In this document: positions 1-61,254 of the stretch, piece after piece
Layout: the number at the start of each line of letters is the position of its first letter
How positions within the stretch are numbered: the stretch's first letter is position 1
Assembly: GCA_951406725.2 (NCBI GenBank)
Contig: OX597833.1
Coordinates: 2,604,001 to 2,668,000 of the forward strand
Source of the DNA: Octopus vulgaris
Lineage: Eukaryota
DNA length: 64,000 nt
Reading direction: 5' to 3'
Notes under the pieces: model-generated
Databases searched by the model: none
Seen by the model: the letters and a program-made list of their open reading frames with translations, nothing else
What the model was told of the DNA's origin: nothing
Position numbers and translations under genes: made by a program

Positions 1-160
1 GTGAAACAAGGTGGGAAAATAATACTCGAATATCGGTGGTAGAGTAATATGATTTATTAATAAAGCTGTAGATATCACAAAAACTGAACCAAAACTGTCC
101 GACGAACGGAAACCTGAATCTCTGAGTAACAGTTTTTGAGATGTCTTTGCAGCTTTATTA
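1..160 (+). mobile_element. Short hairpin element (Penelope-like, non-autonomous) with degenerate hammerhead motif; truncated by window start
   Basis: Same family as 43663-43852 and 49837-50032. Motif actgt-CCGACGA-acggaaacct-GAAT-ctctgag-TA-acagt at 94-133; followed by (AAT)n and (TA)n. Confidence 0.6.
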
Positions 161-181
161 ATAATAATAATAATAAAGTAA

Positions 182-15100: not shown

Positions 15101-15633
15101 AAAAAGTGAGGTGTTACAACAACAGTAATTTTATCATTTCAATATTCTGTCAGTTAATAACTATGTCCTTCCTCATAAAAACTTTTATGATTCGATAGTT
15201 TTATTACAGAGTGATACACATAGTAAAATTACAAGAATTATACACGCTTGGAAATCTCTGCTAATTTACAATTTTTTTCCAGGTTAATTGTAATGGACAT
15301 AAAATTTGAGACAAAGCCATTGGATTGTACGATTTGAATGATATTTAAGAATTAATAGAACTGCATGTCTTTGGTTTACTTCCGAAGACATTCTGCTCAG
15401 CAGAAATTGACCTTTAGCTTGATGGTAATGTTTCTCAATTTATGAGGGCTAAATTGCAAGAAAATGGATGCTATATGGAAGGCGTTAATCATTATATTCA
15501 CAGAGTTTAATTTAAAGGCCACAAAATACTCATATATTTAATTGATTAATATCTTTGACATAAGATATAAATCCTGCTCATTATGTACATTATTTACATT
15601 TGACGAATATTTGTCTCCATCTTGTTCGTTGTT

Positions 15634-15679
15634 AACACAACGTTTCGGCTGATATACCCTCCAGCCTTCATCAGGTGTC
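15634..15679 (-). ncRNA. Minimal type-I hammerhead ribozyme motif
   Basis: gacac-CUGAUGA-A-ggcugg/ucagcc-GAAA-CG-UU-guguu: stems I and II pair, and stem III is the palindrome AACGUU. Confidence 0.7.
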
Positions 15680-15726
15680 TTGGGGAAATTTCCAGCCTGG
15701 GTTCTCATTCCTAAGGTAATTTTCGA

Positions 15727-15795
<69 letters not shown>

Positions 15796-15914
15796 CATTA
15801 TTATTATTCAGGTCACTTTTGGAATCGAACTCGGAATCTTGGGTTTATGGCGTAGTGGTTAAGAGCGCTAGCTACTAACCCCAAGATTCCGAGTTCGATT
15901 CCAAGCAGTGACCA

Positions 15915-16024
<110 letters not shown>

Positions 16025-16086
16025 GTAATAATAATAACATCGAAAAATACCTTAGGAATGAGAACCCAGGTTCCAAATTTCCCCAA

Positions 16087-16132
16087 GATACCTGATGAAG
16101 GCTGGAGGGTATACCAGTCGAAACGTTGTTTT
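16087..16132 (+). ncRNA. Minimal type-I hammerhead ribozyme motif (one stem-I mismatch)
   Basis: gauac-CUGAUGA-A-ggcugg/ccaguc-GAAA-CG-UU-guuuu. Confidence 0.6.
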
Positions 16133-16285
16133 AACAACAAACAAGATGAGGACAAATATCCGTCAAAAATGTAAATAATGTAAATAATGTAAATAATTCT
16201 TCATCTCTTAAATACAGAACTGTACAAATACTGCTTATAATAGATTTAACAATGACTTGCAACGAGAGGCTGTACACCTTGGATA

Positions 16286-43223: not shown

Positions 43224-43598
43224 TCTTTTATTCTTTTACTCTTTTACTTGTTTCAGTCATTTGACTGCGGCCATGCTGGAGCACCGCCTTTAATCGAGCC
43301 ACTCGACCCCGGGACTTATTCTTTTGTAAGAATATCGGTCTCTTTTGCCGAACCGCTAAGTAACGGGGACATAAACACACCAGCACCGGATAAACACAGA
43401 CACACAAACACACATATGCATATATATATATATACATATATACGACGGGCTTCTTTTCAGTTTCCGTCTACAAAATCCACTCACAAGGCTTTAGTCGGCC
43501 CGAGGCTATAGTAGAAGACACTTGCCCAAGGTACCACGCAGTGGGACTGAACCCAGAACCATGTGGTTGGTAAACAAGCTACTTACCACACAGCCACT

Positions 43599-43600
<2 letters not shown>
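43223..43600 (-). mobile_element. SINE family A, internally deleted
   Basis: Head and tail match family A. Confidence 0.88.
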
Positions 43601-43662
<62 letters not shown>

Positions 43663-43666
<4 letters not shown>

Positions 43667-43851
43667 GAGTAAATACATAAATGTGAAAGAAGGTGGAAAA
43701 AAGAGTACTCAAATACCATTGGTAGAGTAATATGCTTTATTTAAAGCAGCAGAAAATTCAACAAAACCTGTTTTTGCTAAACTGTCCGACGAACGGCAAC
43801 GTGAAACTCAGAGTAACAGGTTTTGTTGAATTTTCTGCTGCTTTAAATAAA

Positions 43852-43852
<1 letters not shown>
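43663..43852 (+). mobile_element. Short hairpin element in (TA)n carrying a hammerhead motif (43781-43820)
   Basis: aaagcagcagaaaattcaacaaaac...gttttgttgaattttctgctgcttt inverted arms around acugu-CCGACGA-acg-gcaa-cgu-GAAA-cuc-a-gag-UA-acagg. Confidence 0.75.
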
Positions 43853-43908
<56 letters not shown>

Positions 43909-44232
43909 ACGTATATGTGTTTGGGTGCGCGTGTGTGTATAAACGTACATAAATGAATATGTACGTACGTACGTATGTACACATAAATATACGTATATAC
44001 ATTTCAGAAAAGGCAGCAATGCACGTCAGCATCAATTCATCCTGAAGATGTGACTACGAAGACCGAGAAACTTTTTTTTTTGGTAGAGCTAGCACTTTTC
44101 TTCAGTTCTAAACAACCAGCGTAGGACACCATACGAAAATAATGAATGAATGAAATGATAAGAGGAAGATAAAACGACTTGTTTACAATACAACGTCCAA
44201 AAGGAAAACTGTTCATAATACAAATTTATATA

Positions 44233-44319
<87 letters not shown>

Positions 44320-44795
44320 GCATATATTTAGATATACATATATATATATGCATATAGATATAGATGTGTATATATATATACACATATGTACACATATATA
44401 GATATGGGTGTATATATATATATATGTTCATACATACATATACATACATACACACACATATATATATATATATGTACATACGTATATAGATTCATATATA
44501 TATATATTATATACATGTTCATATACATACATATACGTACACATATATACATATATATATAAATACATGTATATATTTGTATGTATATATATATACACAC
44601 ACACATATATATATGCATATATAAATGTATTTTCACATATACCTGTATATGTGTGTGTGTGTGATTATATGTATCTATATATATATAGAATATATATATA
44701 TATATACATATATATGTACACACGTTGACATATGTACACTGTTTCTCTTTCTCTCTTCCTTCTTTCTCCTCTATATCTATCTATCCATCTCTCTC

Positions 44796-44826
<31 letters not shown>

Positions 44827-45066
44827 TCTTCTTCTTCTTCTTCTTCTTTATCTTTCCTGTTTACATTCTGTTCTCTGCTATATTTAGATGTAATCAACAA
44901 TTGCTTGATTAAAAAAAGACCTAATATGAAACGGCGAAAGCATGAAAGCCTAATTAAAAATGATAATATTTCCTAACGAAATCTTTACTGGCGACATTTT
45001 CGAGTGGGAAGACAATGGCTGAGTATCTCGACCTTTCGACTGTCACACGTACCTCAACGACGGATC

Positions 45067-46050
45067 AACCAAATCTCCCTTAGTGTCTTTCTCGACCTCA
45101 CTATTCCCGCGGAGACCTCTACGAGAGATTAGTCTGCTAGAAATAGCAACCAAATCTCCCTTAGTGTCTTTCTCGACCTCACTTTTCCCGTGGAGACCTC
45201 AACGAGAGATTAGTCTGCTAGAAACAGCAACCAAATCTCCCTTAGTGTCTATCTCGACCTCACTTTTCCCGCGGAGACCTCTACGAGAGATTAGTCTGCT
45301 AGAAACAGCAACCAAATCTCCCTCAGTGTCTATCTCGACCTCACTATTCCCGTGGAGACCTCAACGAGAGATTAGTCTGCTAGAAACAGCAACCAAATCT
45401 CCCTTAGTGTCTTTCTCGACCTCACTATTCCCGTGGAGACCTCAACGAGAGATTAGTCTGCTAGAAACAGCAACCAAATCTCCCTTAGTGTCTTTCTCGA
45501 CCTCACTATTCCCGTGGAGACCTCTACGAGAGATTAGTCTGCTAGAAACAGCAACCAAATCTCCCTTAGTGTCTATCTCGACCTCACTTTTCCCGCGGAG
45601 ACCTCTACGAGGCATTTGTCTGCTAGAAATAGCAACCAAATCTCCCTTAGTGTCTTTCTCGACCTCACTTTTCCCGCGGAGACCTCTACGAGAGATTAGT
45701 CTGCTAGAAACAGCAACCAAATCTCCCTTAGTGTCTATCTCGACCTCACTATTCCTGCGGAGACCTCTACGAGAGATTAGTCTGCTAGAAACAGCAACCA
45801 AATCTCCCTTAGTGTCTATCTCGACCTGACTTTTCCCGCGGATACCTCTACGAGGCATTTGTCTGCTAGAAATAGCAACCAAATCTTCGTCGGTGAGTAT
45901 CTCGACATCTCTGTTGTCTCGGAGACCTCCACGTAGGAGCAAATCCCGCTAGAAATAGCAACCAAATCTTCCTCAGTGAGTATCCCGACCTCTTTATCAC
46001 CACCGATACCTCTTGGTGAGTATTTAAGCGGTTAAAAATTGCAACCAAAT
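45067..46050. repeat. 81-bp minisatellite, about 10 conserved units plus degenerate ends
   Basis: Unit caaccaaatctcccttagtgtctttctcgacctcactattcccgcggagacctctacgagagattagtctgctagaaatag; 27-aa periodicity in the ORF track. Confidence 0.92.
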
Positions 46051-46585
46051 CTCATCAGATTCCATTTTATTGTCCTTAAAAAGAGGATCGATTAGACTAT
46101 ATAGTCCATATAGATGGTCGCGGTCGGAACGGCTTTAACCAATATGTCGTCTGTTCGACATGCCATTAAGGAAATGGCAATCAGATTGACTGGAAACAAG
46201 AGCAGGTGTTAATATGCATTCCTCCCTTAATAGACGTCATCAGCACAGTTGTTATCCTGCCTGGTCTGTAATACAAGAAACGCTTAGACATATACGAAGA
46301 ATAGGTGTTGAATTCATTTATGGCTCTGACTAGTTTGTCTAATTTAAATGAAAATTAGCTCAGAAAAGCGCTGAGGGGAATCAGGGACAGGCGTCTAAAC
46401 AAAGAAGACGAATAATGATATGGGAAGTGACAAGCAACATCAATTGTTGATTTTAAAATCTATTTCCGCTTCCTGAGAAGACAATTAATCACCAGGTGGC
46501 AACAATGACAAACAGGCACATATATGACACTACGTATGTATGTATGTATGTATATGCATGTACGTATGGTTGTATGTATGTATGT

Positions 46586-47754
46586 ATGATTGATTGATTG
46601 ATTGATTGATTCTAGTTTTAGCTTATGAGCTGTGGCCATGCTGGGGCACCGCCATTTGGTGTTGCTACTTGGTTTCACTTCATGGAGGCTTTCTAGCAAC
46701 TGCTATTTGGTGCATGAGAGAGTTCGATGCAGCTGCCCTCATCTGCCCCTCCTGCCGTGAAGTTGGTTCATCTGGGACACCTGACAGGAAGAGATCAGCT
46801 TCATTTTAAAGACATCTGTATCCACCCCATGCAGGTCTCTCAGGTTCTTCGGGAGGATATTGAAGAGCTGTGGGCCTCGGAAGCCCAGGCTATCACAGTA
46901 TCTTGTCCTACATCTTGATGGCAGGTTTGGAGTCCTAGGCACCACGCAGTGGCGCCCAGTTCTGGCATTTGCGTAACTCTCGATGCCAAAGTTCAGGACA
47001 CTTCCTCCAGGATCTTCCAGATGTATATTATGGCATATCTTTCCCGCCTACGCTCCAGGGAATATAATTTTAATCTCTTGAGTCTTTCCCAGTAGCTTAC
47101 ATTCTGCATAGAGGCTATCTTCTTTGTGTAGCTTCGTTGGATCGCCTCAAGTTCTGTGATCAACTTGACACTGGATGGTGACCATAGCTGAGAGCAATAG
47201 TCAGAGTGGCTTAGGACAAGTGTCTTCCAGAGGACCATCATGGTTTCTTGTTCTCTTGTTCTAAAGGTTCTAAGAATCCATCCAGCCAGCCGTCTACATT
47301 TCATTGTCAGTTTAGCAACATGTACATGAAAGGTCGCGTCATCACTCATGTGAATACCCAGGTCACGCACTGATTGTGCCTCTGGGATTGCAATCCCTCC
47401 GGGTCCAGTGTATTCATTGGGTATTGCATTCAGTTTTGCATGCTGATAGTATAAAGCTTGAAACTTTCCAGCATTGAACTGCATGCTATTCTTTTCAGCC
47501 CACTTGTATATTTCGTCCAGCTCACATTGCAGGTGTTTAGTGTCCTCAGGGTTCTGTATTGCCTGTGAAACTTTTGTATCATCTGCATAACTTGTGATCG
47601 TGGCTCTCTGCGTGGCTGAGGGCATGTCTGAGAGGGCCATTATGAACAGTAGTGGTCCCAGAACAGTGCCCTGCGGAACACCGCTCACTATTTGTGTGTT
47701 AATGGAGGTGGCCCCATTGGCTACTACCACCTGACTTCTATCCTTCAGAAAGTC

Positions 47755-47756
<2 letters not shown>
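46586..47756 (-). mobile_element. CR1-clade LINE, 5'-truncated, RT C-terminal half plus 3' end and (AATC)n tail
   Basis: SGVPQGTVLGPLLF, YADDTK, VRDLG, YCSQLWSP, YWERLKRLKLYSLERRRERY; frameshift near 46993. Confidence 0.93.
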
Positions 47757-47795
<39 letters not shown>

Positions 47796-47876
47796 TAGAT
47801 AGATAGATAGATATCTACATACGTACATATACTTATATATATGCATATATATACATACAGATATATATACATATAT

Positions 47877-47907
<31 letters not shown>

Positions 47908-47981
47908 CATATATATATACGTTTATATATTTGTTGTGCAAGATTTTTTTATGTGAAGTCGTGTGTTGAAACAGATATTAT

Positions 47982-48459
47982 TATATTTCGGAATGATCAT
48001 ATTGCCAGTTTAGTCAATAAAAACACATGCACTATATATTTGGTGTTACTTTGCTTCAGTGTTATTTATTTGTAAACACATGAACAAAATAAGAATAAAC
48101 AAAAACAACAACAACAAAAACAAATTACATGAACGTATATAAACAGAAGATACAAATATTACAGGCATCCCCCCACACATACACAGTAAATAAACATAGA
48201 CGCACATAGAGATATAAGCATGCGCAAATGAAGACATACAATAGAAATACAAAATGGCTGACGGTTAGTAAAGAGAGACACAAATAAGAAAGAATAAAAC
48301 AAAGGACCACTGATACGGTCACAGGAGTGTGACGAAAGAACTCTGACCGAAATAAGATTAAGATTAATGTAAAAAATAAATAACACTGAAGCAAAACAAC
48401 ACCAAATATATAGTGCGTGTGTTTTTATTGGCTAAACTGGCAAATGATCATTCCGAAAT

Positions 48460-48462
<3 letters not shown>
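47982..48462. mobile_element. Element with ~85-bp inverted arms between (TA)n/(CA)n tracts
   Basis: tatttcggaatgatcat...gcttcagtgttattt versus aaataacactgaagc...atgatcattccgaaata. Confidence 0.7.
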
Positions 48463-48544
<82 letters not shown>

Positions 48545-48548
<4 letters not shown>

Positions 48549-48688
48549 TTATCTGTAAATGTAATATGAGACAATTATTCGGTAGCCATGATAAACCTCT
48601 GAATTTCGGATAGCGAGGTGGAAATCCACTCGGAGTTTTATCATGGCTACCGAATAATTATCACATATTACATTTACAGATAAATTCC
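48545..48688. repeat. Near-perfect ~55-bp-arm hairpin element in (TA)n
   Basis: aatttatctgtaaatgtaatatg...ggtagccatgataaa / tttatcatggctacc...catattacatttacagataaatt. Confidence 0.75.
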
Positions 48689-49031
48689 TCTATTTACATA
48701 ATATCGAAGTCTCTTTCTTTCTTTTGTTGTCTTACTGTTTTTATCAATATATATATATACACACAAATAATATGTGTGATATTATTTGTCAAGAGAGACA
48801 GAGAACGGCAGAAACAAGGAAAATGCCACTTATATTTGAACACTATACAAATATTCCTTTAAAAAAACTTTTCTTTTAATTTTTCTAAATTTAATTATTT
48901 AATCGTTACAGTTGAAAAGGTCTCAAATGACTGAAACCGGTACTGAAATGTTCTTTATAAAATTCTTTTAGCATTTTCTATCTTGACTGGTTTTTTCATA
49001 CATATCAACTCGTGTGTTCCTTTTCATCCTT

Positions 49032-49097
<66 letters not shown>

Positions 49098-49142
49098 AAT
49101 GAAAGAATGGAGTCGAACGACGATTTAACAAAAAGAATTTAT

Positions 49143-49223
49143 TCTCGACATATGTTTCGAAGACTGCATATTCTTAATTCCGAAGGAATAAAGGGTGCAT
49201 TATGCCGCCTTCTCATCAGGAAA
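49143..49223 (-). ncRNA. Type-I hammerhead ribozyme motif with long stem II, in a ~140-bp insert in (TA)n
   Basis: uuuc-CUGAUGA-gaaggcggcaua...uaugcagucuuc-GAAA-cauaug-UC-gaga; canonical core, GUC triplet, palindromic stem III (ACAUAUGU). Confidence 0.75.
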
Positions 49224-49234
49224 GACAAGGAACT

Positions 49235-49289
<55 letters not shown>

Positions 49290-49292
<3 letters not shown>

Positions 49293-49622
49293 TGTACAAT
49301 AGGTGCAATGACGCATCATTTCATATGCTCGTTACCCAGATGGCAGTAAAGTGCAGACAACTGGCAGGATGGGTACTGAGGTCCTTCAAAACAAGAGACC
49401 CAAAAACTATGCTGATCCAGTGGAGAATCTTTGTTCTCAGCCGCCTGGATTACTGCTACCAGTTATGGTCACCACATAGTGCCAATCTAACAGCGGAGCC
49501 TGAAGCAGTCCAACGCCACTACACAAAAAAGATTGAAACAGTGCAACGGAGGAACAGGTTTAGGCTGGGAAAACTGCAACTTTACTCCCTGGAGCGAAGG
49601 CATGAGAGATATGCAATAATGT
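49290..49622 (+). pseudogene. CR1-clade LINE fragment
   Basis: KCRQLAGWVLRSFKTRD...LDYCYQLWSP...LYSLERRHERYAI, homologous to 46993-47350. Confidence 0.88.
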
Positions 49623-49788
49623 ACGCGCAGGAGTGGCTGTGTGGTAAGTAGCTTGTTTACCAACCACATGGTTCCGGGTTCAGTCCCACTGTGTGGCATC
49701 TTGGGCAAGTGTCTTCTGCTATAGCCCCGGGCCGACCAATGCCTTGTGAGTGGATTTGGTAGACGGAAACTAAAAGAAGCCTGTCGTA

Positions 49789-49837
<49 letters not shown>

Positions 49838-50030
49838 TTTATTTTAAGCAGCAGAAAATTCAACAAAATCTGTTACTCTGAGTTTCTCGTTGCCGTTCAT
49901 CAGACAGTTTTTGCTAGAATCATAACAATTTTGTTGAATTTTCTGCTGCTTAAAATAAAGCATATTACTCTACCACTGGTATTTGAGTACTCTTTTTCCA
50001 CCTTGTTTCACATTTATGTGTTTACTCCGG

Positions 50031-50071
<41 letters not shown>

Positions 50072-50300
50072 TGTGTGTGTGTTTGTGTGTCTGTGTTTGT
50101 CCCCCTAGCATTGCTTGACAACCGATGCTGGTGTGTTTACGTCCCCGTAACTTAGCGGTTCGGCAAAAGAGACCGATAGAATAAGTACTGGGCTTACAAA
50201 GAATAAGTCCCGGGGTCGAGTTGCTCGACTAAAGGCGGTGCTCCAGCATGGCCGCAGTCAAATGACTGAAACAAGTAAAAGAGTAAAAGAGTAAAAGAGT
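49623..50300 (+). mobile_element. SINE family A with a nested hammerhead-bearing hairpin element (49837-50032, minus strand)
   Basis: The SINE halves flank an insert in the SINE's internal (TA)n. Confidence 0.88.
49870..49908 (-). ncRNA. Type-I hammerhead ribozyme motif
   Basis: acugu-CUGAUGA-acg-gcaa-cga-GAAA-cuc-a-gag-UA-acag; canonical core, one stem-II mismatch. Confidence 0.68.
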
Positions 50301-59003: not shown

Positions 59004-59977
59004 CCGCAGCAGCAACCAGTCAGTTTGTAATTGCAGTAGACTAAATAATTAATTGTTTCACATCCTGCACACGCTACGATGGATCTTCCATTAGTTTGCT
59101 TCAACGATTAGTGGCGGTGGTAGTGGTGGTGGTAGTGGTGGTGGTGGTGATGGTGGTGGTTGTGGTGGTGGTGGTGGTGCTGTAGATAGTGGTGATGATG
59201 GAAGTGGTGGTGGTGGTGGTGGCGGTGGTAAGAGCAGCAGCTTTGATGATGATGGTGGTGGTAGTGGTGGAGGTGATAGTAGAGGTGGTGGTGGTGGTGG
59301 TGGTGGTGGTGGTGGTGGTGGTGGTGGTGGTGGTGGTGGTGGTGGTGATGGTGGTAGTGGTGGAGGTGGAGGTGGAGGTGATGGTAGTGGTGATGGTATT
59401 AGTGGCGGTGGTGGCGGTGGTGGCGGTGGTGGTGGTGGTGGTGGTGGTGGTTGTGGTGGTGGTGGTGGCGGTGAGGTAATACAGATTTGATGGACAGAAG
59501 ATCGTGGTGATGTCGTGGTTAGATGATAATAGAGAGCTTGATGATCGTGATGATGATGCTGGTGATGATCGTGATGATGCTGCTGGTGATGCTGGTGGTG
59601 ATGGTGTTGTTGTTGGTGGTGGTGGTGGTGGTGGTGGTGGCGGTGGTGGTCAAGTTATAATGTGGTCAACGCGTTGAAGACGCTCTTGCACTTTGTATAT
59701 AGCCTAATCCACTTACTAATGCCTGATAAACACGATACGGTAGTTATGGCCGTATAATTTATCGCTGAACCAGTTTACCGGAAAAGCTGCCGTATAGACG
59801 ATGTCCGGTTTCTAGGCTGACCAACTGACTGACCGGAACTATATAATTTGAAGTAGTTAGTGTTGTAGGAAGTGAGAGTCGAGTCTGTTCAAAAGCTCAT
59901 CTCGCGATTGTAGAGGTTCTAGGATCGGATTTCTCTGAGTATTAGCGTGTTATAAGATATTTGATACCAGAGAGGGG

Positions 59978-60493
59978 CCGATGTTTTGGGTTGCCGATGT
60001 TTTGGGTTGCCGATGTTTTGGGTTGCCGATGTTTGGGGTTGCCGATGTTTTGGGTTGCCGATGTTTGGGGTTGCTGATGTTTTGGGTTGCCGATGTTTTG
60101 GGTTGCCGATGTTTTGGGTTGCCGATGTTTTGGGTTACCGATGTCCTGGGTTGCCGATGTTCTGGGTTGCCGATGTTTTGGGTTGCCGATGCTTTGAGTT
60201 GCCGATGTTTTGGGTTGCCGATGTTTTGGGTTGCCGATGTTTTGGGTTACCGATGTCCTGGGTTGCCGATGCTCTGGGTTGCCGATGTTTTGGGTTGCCG
60301 ATGCTTTGAGTTGCCGATGTTTTGGGTTGCCGATGTTTTGGGTTGCCGGTGTTTTGGGTTACCGATGTCCTGGGTTGCCGATGTTCTGGGTTGCCGATGT
60401 TTTGAGTTGCCGATGCTTTAAGTTGCCGATGTTTTGGGTTGCCGATGTTTTGGGTTGCCGGTGTCTTGGGTTGCCGATATCCTGGGTTGCCGA
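59978..60493. repeat. 16-bp minisatellite (ttgccgatgttttggg) with 112-bp higher-order repeat
   Basis: The variant ttaccgatgtcctggg recurs at 60135, 60247 and 60359. Confidence 0.92.
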
Positions 60494-61254
60494 CGTTGTT
60501 TAGCTCCACATAAGAGTAGATGGAGATTTGTGAGCAACCTACTAGCGATTATGGGGTCCAGGGTTCGGATTTCTCTCTGTGCATTACTGCATTTTGTCAA
60601 TATATTTTATAGAAGAAAGGGGCCAAAGTGTTTATAGTTGGTGATGTTTAACCAAGGTGAGATCTTCAGCCTGGGCCAAATTCTTCTATCATACGATTCG
60701 AGTCGACCAATGCCTTGCAAATGAAATTGGTAGAGAGAGCCCGATGCTATTAAAATTCCTCTTCTAAATAGTCGCACACATAGCTGTGTGGCAAGAAGCT
60801 TGCTTCCCGGAGGGAGGAGCCCATGCCCTGGACAGGGGACGAGGAGTGGCTTTCGCAGGTGACTACGAAGACTCAAAGGACATGTTTAGATACGCCTTGA
60901 GGGGCCCCGACCTAGAGCTGGCGCATTGCCTAAGGGAAGTGTAAGCCAGGTCTGGGAGGAGGGGCTTTGTGTATTGTATTTATATTTATTATACGTAATT
61001 ATTGAACTATGTTGTTGTTTGTAATGGACTGTTAAGTCCAAAAATTGAAAAGTTGTAAAAGTTGTAAGAGGTTTAATACCTCGTTTTGTGTTTGGTTTTA
61101 AAGAACAATGTTTTAGAGAAGCAGAAGTCGGCGGGCGCTTTTTGTCATCTCCCATCATCTTTCTTTCATTATCATTCATTTCATTAATGTCCTCGTCCAG
61201 ACCGCAAAGCTACTTTACTCTATGTACTGCCTTTATGGCAAATGTAATGAAATA

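What the first reader, a model, noticed from the sequence alone, without database searches (positions are those of the whole stretch)
43663..50032. ~190-bp hairpin element family that homes into (TA)n and carries a hammerhead at the hairpin apex
Seen: three copies (1-160 +, 43663-43852 +, 49837-50032 -), each flanked by (TA)n and one nested in a SINE's internal (TA)n. About 25-bp inverted arms extend stem I of acugu-CYGAYGA-acg-gcaa-cgu-GAAA-cuc-a-gag-UA-acag. Two copies have CCGACGA (U4C) and one has canonical CUGAUGA. Inference: a non-coding, microsatellite-targeted retrozyme or solo PLE pLTR. The recurrent U4C suggests a subfamily that amplified with a variant core.
Basis: partly seen in the sequence, partly recalled or inferred. 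Interest (0 to 1): 0.7.

Follow-up and report, generated by a model that had tools for sequence, protein, structure and literature searches.

The report
Paired stubs of a Penelope retrotransposon
The three hairpins are short mirror-image insertions left by a young, protein-coding Penelope-type jumping gene that lands in TA repeats; each was likely made by copying the capped, uncut front end of its RNA twice, and two older branches of the family spread with a ribozyme core change that is predicted to weaken self-cutting.

Summary
The three copies, their (TA)n flanks, the SINE nesting and the two core variants are real. They are not a fixed 190-bp non-coding element. Each is two separately shortened copies of the end of a 3.36-kb Penelope-like element of the Hydra clade, joined head to head; the parent has an intact 711-aa RT plus endonuclease ORF. 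Arms end at one of two fixed sites 70 nt apart, usually one of each per insertion. In a 200-arm sample, 96 inner ends lie 22 nt upstream to 5 nt downstream of the ribozyme core, and only 2 lie at the cut site. Arms ending at an initiator-like A often carry an extra G. So the template was likely capped, uncut sense RNA, reverse-transcribed twice from internal starts. The hairpin is a by-product of insertion; the true stem I lies within one arm. The U4C core is inherited, not decay: 96 of 100 and 83 of 100 listed copies of two older subfamilies carry it (at least 2,647 exact hits), against 0 of 100 in the canonical one. U4C copies also reach into the ORF. Cleavage and the start site are untested.

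The parts
43664..43852 (+). Copy 2: head-to-head insertion unit, U4C subfamily B
43664..43734 (-). Copy 2: ~70-nt tail, the stretch between the two fixed end sites; in the parent it lies between the pLTR end and the 5' leader
43664..43778 (-). Copy 2: tail-bearing arm; reaches about -11 but lacks the ribozyme loop (internal skip between the two strands of stem I, inferred)
43779..43852 (+). Copy 2: tail-less arm, ends at the first fixed site and runs into (TA)n
43782..43819 (+). Copy 2: minimal type I hammerhead motif, core CCGACGA, 3-bp stem II with GCAA loop, palindromic stem III; predicted cut after 43815
   Evidence: layout as in Hydra-clade motifs
49837..50030 (-). Copy 3: head-to-head unit of the young canonical subfamily A, inside a SINE's internal (TA)n
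49837..49921 (-). Copy 3: tail-less arm reaching the initiator-like A (49920), preceded by a G (49921) that the parent lacks there
49870..49907 (-). Copy 3: hammerhead motif with canonical CTGATGA core
49923..50030 (+). Copy 3: tail-bearing arm, truncated near the predicted cut site
1..179 (+). Copy 1: unit of the old subfamily C; starts 17 nt before the window
95..132 (+). Copy 1: decayed hammerhead motif, core CCGACGA
49626..50294 (+). Host SINE (approximate limits) split by copy 3

Best explanation
The hairpins are short insertions of a protein-coding Hydra-clade Penelope-like retrotransposon, each made of two separately shortened copies of the element's end joined head to head in a TA repeat, and each was likely made by two reverse-transcription events on capped, uncut sense RNA. 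Inferred steps: Pol II starts about 16 nt upstream of the ribozyme core in the upstream pLTR of a tandem copy. The enzyme nicks both strands of (TA)n and starts copying at two internal sites, +69 and +139 from the core. Near the RNA's 5' end this yields run-off copies of about 85 and 155 nt, which are trimmed and joined through short matches. The same starts on a downstream unit of a read-through RNA yield long arms. Subfamilies B and C inherited a U4C core from their coding source copies; cutting is apparently not needed for these insertions.
For: Parent: L061 holds 3.36-kb tandem and inverted units with an intact 711-aa ORF. 28 of the 150 scored EN-domain hits (of 21,840 candidates) have the full open frame. 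The AlphaFold model (pLDDT 87.7) best matches telomerase RT. Hydra motifs are present. Arms end at +69 or +139. Of 64 head-to-head pairs, 58 have exactly one tail. In 43 short one-tail pairs the tail arm is longer in 12, the tail-less arm in 15, and they are equal in 16, which a single fold-back copy cannot give. Inner ends of 200 arms: 96 at -22..+5, 62 beyond -100 and spread to full length, 2 at the cut site. G precedes the -16 A in 11 of 17 arms ending there and in 165 of 2,357 genomic matches, where the parent has C or T. Two insertions have the G on both arms, and the palindrome expected without G was found 0 times. Both arms of L061, L062, L063, L065 and L067 group together in the ORF tree. 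Published parallels: two internal RT starts define the tail, and ribozyme mutants still insert (PMC11167929, parts 1-2 of 4 read); an extra G marks the cap in L1 (PMC11702581, passage).
Against: In 24 of 30 G-bearing arms the G could also be the partner arm's next base. Junction ends are blurred by a few bases because -16..-1 is nearly complementary to +31..+47; about six ends are visibly over-extended. The start site is inferred from DNA alone. U4C arms are short more often (32 of 37) than canonical arms (67 of 124; p=0.0004), which this model does not itself explain. No intact U4C-linked ORF was found among 20 long candidates. The endonuclease call rests on motifs; Pfam gave no match.
Confidence: 0.8

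Rival explanations
1. The short arms are self-propagating, SINE-like units: a tail-bearing arm carries an internal promoter and both RT start sites, is transcribed on its own and is mobilised in trans, especially in the U4C subfamilies.
For: U4C arms are mostly short. Arms with copy 2's exact motif type had 0 long of 22 in the loci then held, a set partly selected for short copies. Penelope has an internal promoter (PMC2377424, passages).
Against: Among 19 further B loci, two CCGACGA arms reach about -95 and one reaches -45; one also carries an inverted piece of upstream 3' UTR. Other U4C arms run into the ORF, and one has a tandem pLTR. In the anole element the template needs ORF sequence downstream of the tail (PMC11167929).
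Confidence: 0.12
2. The inverted structure forms by self-priming (fold-back) of one cDNA or of an antisense template, as proposed for rotifer PLEs.
For: Many junctions are perfect palindromes centred on CTAG (28 contexts). The model is discussed in PMC3846280 (passages).
Against: Either arm can be the longer one and only one carries the tail. The extra G marks a sense-strand 5' end.
Confidence: 0.05
3. One reading: a fixed non-coding ~190-bp retrozyme with a functional hammerhead at the hairpin apex.
For: Of 64 pairs, 46 are short hairpins. Outer ends are constant in the 30 loci.
Against: Junctions vary, arm lengths are continuous and a coding parent exists. The tandem period is 3.36 kb, not 170-400 nt. 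Many junctions delete part of the ribozyme.
Confidence: 0.02
4. DNA-transposon MITE with terminal inverted repeats.
For: Inverted arms and a TA target.
Against: The repeats are asymmetric (70-nt tail on one side), variable in length and continuous with an RT-coding element.
Confidence: 0.01

Closest known systems
Hydra clade of C-terminal EN+ Penelope-like elements (Craig et al. 2021, PMC8557442; passages, section 11 and supplement tables seen)
   Same: RWK, DKT, CxCx5C linker, CxxC/CxH, no CCHH, single ORF, (TA)n target, hammerhead near the 3' end (layout close to Hydra-2_Amil), tandem and inverted insertions with an optional tail.
   Different: 3.36 kb rather than <3 kb; 70-nt tail rather than 30-40; 2-3-bp stem II; U4C core in two subfamilies, whereas all Hydra-clade cores listed in their table have U4. 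It is not Hydra-1_Obim, which has another ribozyme and protein (compared by eye).
Anolis Poseidon element PAc (Frangieh et al. 2024, PMC11167929; parts 1-2 of 4 read)
   Same: Two internal RT start sites bounding the tail; AT-rich target, both strands nicked; uncut RNA is the substrate.
   Different: Other clade; its ribozyme overlaps the ORF start. The parts read report no cap footprint and no short hairpin class.
Rotifer Penelope insertions with head-to-head pLTRs (Arkhipova et al. 2013, PMC3846280; passages)
   Same: Inverted pLTR with optional tail and palindromic junctions.
   Different: That paper favours self-priming on an antisense template and leaves the question open; the data here favour two copies of sense RNA.
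Metazoan non-LTR retrozymes (PMC7229834, abstract; bioRxiv 10.64898/2026.07.22.740005, part 1 of 5)
   Same: Type I hammerhead, relation to PLE pLTRs.
   Different: Retrozymes are non-coding tandem 170-400-nt repeats expressed as circles; these units are inverted pairs from a coding parent.

Membership tests
Hydra-clade PLE | Single ORF with telomerase-like RT | tested here: met
   711-aa ORF with YRDD; top fold match TERT, E=3.6e-10
Hydra-clade PLE | C-terminal GIY-YIG endonuclease | tested here: inconclusive
   VYRA..YTG with conserved R, E, N across 17 homologues, read by eye; no Pfam hit; the domain was not folded and searched alone
Hydra-clade PLE | RWK and DKT motifs, CxCx5C linker, CxxC and CxH around E/N | tested here: met
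   LRWK, SDKT, CNCKNESSC, CRLC, CRH in the ORF against the definition
Hydra-clade PLE | Insertion into (TA)n | tested here: met
   175 of 200 arms run directly into TA or alternating repeats by a strict rule; 2 continue in tandem; most of the other 23 are TA-rich or were mis-parsed
Hydra-clade PLE | pLTRs from partial tandems, inverted truncated copy, optional tail | tested here: met
Hydra-clade PLE | Placement in the Hydra clade in an RT tree with named references | not testable with these tools
   Reference sequences were visible only as text in the supplement
Type I hammerhead ribozyme | Core CUGANGA...GAAA...UH with stems I-III | tested here: met
   Met in subfamily A (96 of 100 listed); in B and C position 4 is C; stem II has only 2-3 bp; no Rfam match
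Type I hammerhead ribozyme | Self-cleavage | not testable with these tools
   No assay; no pile-up of insertion ends at the cut site (2 of 200)
Non-LTR retrozyme | Tandem 170-400-nt units | tested here: not met
   Tandem period 3.36 kb; short units are inverted pairs
Non-LTR retrozyme | No coding capacity in the family | tested here: not met
Non-LTR retrozyme | Circular RNA expression | not testable with these tools
   Only assembled contigs were available
MITE | Fixed-length unit with symmetric terminal inverted repeats | tested here: not met

The most novel reading that the evidence does not exclude
The genome records the PLE insertion mechanism: twin reverse transcription of capped, uncut sense RNA from two fixed internal starts, with the cap copied as an extra G. 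This would settle the sense-versus-antisense question for head-to-head PLE inversions. In addition, coding lineages made thousands of insertions with a U4C core, and the currently active lineage may have regained the canonical core, which would give a natural experiment on whether PLE ribozyme cutting controls the yield of full-length copies.
Probability: 0.45. Interest if true: 0.65.

Novelty: new variant of a known kind. Interest (0 to 1): 0.45.

Why it matters
How Penelope-like elements build their inverted insertions, and what their hammerheads do, are stated open questions (PMC3846280, PMC8557442, PMC11167929). This family has many identical intact copies, a predicted start site, two fixed RT start sites and natural core variants, so both questions can be tested directly. 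It also warns that such hairpins are easily misfiled as MITEs, retrozymes or miRNA precursors. The element itself is a further member of a described clade, and other notes of this scan have reached the same cap model.

Tried and rejected
Rfam scans gave only hairpin and microsatellite matches: none for hammerheads among the 150 shown of 248 or the 39 for copy 2. Pfam and PDB sequence searches gave nothing for the ORF. One contig joined other sequence to the base before the ATG; the motif was in none of the loci then held and was not pursued. CpG decay as the source of the core difference was rejected: the canonical subfamily has 0 of 100 C4, and B and C are uniform. A cleavage footprint at insertion ends was looked for and not found; jumps across the ribozyme loop were rare (4 contexts against 214 read-through). 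Reversion from U4C to U4 could not be shown: C is sister to A+B, but a monophyletic B is not rejected (AU p=0.32), and the terminal tree has B as a clade with an unresolved root. Two short rows were left out of the tree, and rows under 330 nt out of the tree. Alignment A2 was selected on the core pattern and was not used as evidence of conservation. Folding of the monomer is no better than shuffles (z -1.1). A paper on PLE hammerhead dimers (Lünse et al. 2017, recalled) is not held and was not seen; it may already list U4C variants. bioRxiv supplements were not seen.
Full report
Observation. Copies 1 and 2 carry CCGACGA and copy 3 carries CTGATGA. The arms are 32-38 bp. Copy 3 splits a SINE at its internal (TA)n. 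The genome has 2.8 Gb in 227 contigs; that it is an octopus is my inference from recalled features and from the nearest published family, not from a call.

Not a fixed unit. A search with copy 2 gave 1,521 candidates, 40 scored and 30 fetched. All 30 share both outer ends, with TA repeats on the left in 30 and on the right in 29. The inner junction varies from copy to copy, and a few junctions recur. A 32-mer over the ribozyme has 2,357 exact matches and 0 in the control. Many come as minus/plus pairs from a few bases to over 5 kb apart, and some as tandems 3.36 kb apart.

The parent. L061 holds tandem and inverted 3.36-kb units with an intact 711-aa ORF. The tail is followed by a ~65-nt leader and the ATG. 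The protein has no Pfam or PDB sequence match but has 1,197 relatives at E<1e-30. Its model has pLDDT 87.7 and best matches telomerase RT. It carries the Hydra-clade motifs of PMC8557442 section 11. Its ribozyme resembles Hydra-2_Amil and differs from Hydra-1_Obim. Of 150 scored EN-domain hits, all 98-100% identical, 28 have the full open frame, so the family is young and probably active.

Anatomy of insertions. Counting from the base before the core's first C as 0, arms end at +69 or +139. To avoid selecting on the ribozyme, I took the first 100 exact hits of each of two 27-mers downstream of it (3,205 and 5,062 hits in all) and mapped all 200. 175 run directly into TA-type repeats. There are 64 head-to-head pairs, 58 with exactly one tail and 46 short; either arm can be the longer. 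62 arms extend beyond -100, spread up to full length. 96 end between -22 and +5 (3.4 per nt, against 0.23 at -99..-23 and 0.02 further up), and 2 end at the predicted cut site. About six of these ends are visibly over-extended by the aligner because the two strands of stem I resemble each other.

Likely cap footprint. The pile-up stops at an A at -16 in an initiator-like context (consensus recalled). G precedes it in 11 of 17 arms ending there (p=0.0006 against 0.25) and in 165 of 2,357 genomic matches, where the parent has C or T. In 24 of 30 such arms the partner could supply the G; in 6 it cannot, and two insertions have G on both arms. The perfect palindrome expected without G was seen 0 times, against 23 contexts with G; that count is inflated by the loci selected for G. 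An extra G marks cap copying in L1 (PMC11702581, passage). RNA starting at -16 is predicted to fold an extended stem I from its first base, so the real stem I lies within one arm.

Mechanism. Shown: the parent, fixed outer ends, one tail per pair, independent inner ends, the pile-up and the G excess. Inferred: Pol II start at -16, double nick in (TA)n, two internal RT starts as shown in vitro for the anole element (PMC11167929), run-off to the cap and end joining. This fits that paper's result that ribozyme mutants still insert. It disfavours the antisense self-priming model raised in PMC3846280.

The U4C core. With the core left open in the pattern, subfamily A (3,769 hits) has 96 of 100 CTGATGA and no C4. 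B (1,501 hits) has 96 of 100 C4: 70 CCGATGA, 23 CCGACGA, 3 CCAATGA. C (1,146 hits) has 73 CCGACGA and 83 C4. These counts are by hand from the listed first 100 of each. Copy 1 belongs to C, copy 2 to B and copy 3 to A. B and C copies reach into the ORF (B 88-92% and C about 68-70% nucleotide identity to A), though none of 20 long B-type candidates had an intact ORF. C is the oldest (81% within-class identity in 7 tail-bearing arms) and is sister to A+B. Whether A reverted to U4, or B gained U4C separately, is unresolved. U4C is reported to lower activity strongly in vitro while allowing viroid infectivity (PMC3088659, passage). U4C arms are short more often than canonical arms (32 of 37 against 67 of 124); this could reflect loss of cutting, age, or self-propagation of short units.

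Novelty. Inverted truncated PLE copies, tails, and paired opposite-strand hammerheads are in print (PMC8557442; PMC4209133, parts 1-2 of 4 read). I found no paper on U4C in PLE ribozymes or on cap footprints at PLE junctions in searches; one relevant recalled paper was not available. Four earlier notes of this scan propose the same cap model. I saw them after recording the idea, and they are not independent support.

Verdict. A real, young Hydra-clade PLE family. The hairpins are by-products of its insertion, informative about mechanism but not a new class of element. Interest 0.45.

Noticed in passing
window 15590-16200: A second head-to-head palindrome of an unrelated family: hammerhead cores at 15674(-) and 16092(+), (TAA)n runs and a central tRNA-like inverted segment (by eye; ARAGORN found no tRNA).
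   Followed up: partly
window 27716 (+): A single minimal hammerhead motif of another family (CTGACGA core, longer stem II), about 130 nt upstream of a (TA)n run; likely another truncated PLE end.
   Followed up: no
window 43300-43600 and at least nine other places: A ~470-bp SINE with an internal (TA)n recurs at 78-96% identity; copy 2 lies in the (TA)n next to the head of one copy.
   Followed up: partly
window 43764-43785; L004, L472, L481: Some arms skip the ribozyme loop, jumping between the two strands of stem I at or 3 nt beyond the predicted cut site; either RT slippage over a hairpin or rare copying of cut RNA.
   Followed up: partly
L226, L227, L228 (G000:C1 21.1-22.3 Mb): Three old copies share identical upstream flanks, so they spread inside a larger duplicated segment; L216 likewise shows a tandem duplication of one hairpin 1.3 kb apart.
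   Followed up: no
L061 7200-8220: The ~1-kb 3' UTR diverges much faster between subfamilies (70-80% identity) than the ORF (88-92%) or the last 150 nt (93-97%), which points to constraint on the ribozyme-tail region even with U4C.
   Followed up: partly
L188 and L005: More distant endonuclease-like ORF remnants (32-33% identity), probably other PLE families in this genome.
   Followed up: no
window 59849-60570: A 16-bp tandem array of more than 40 units.
   Followed up: no
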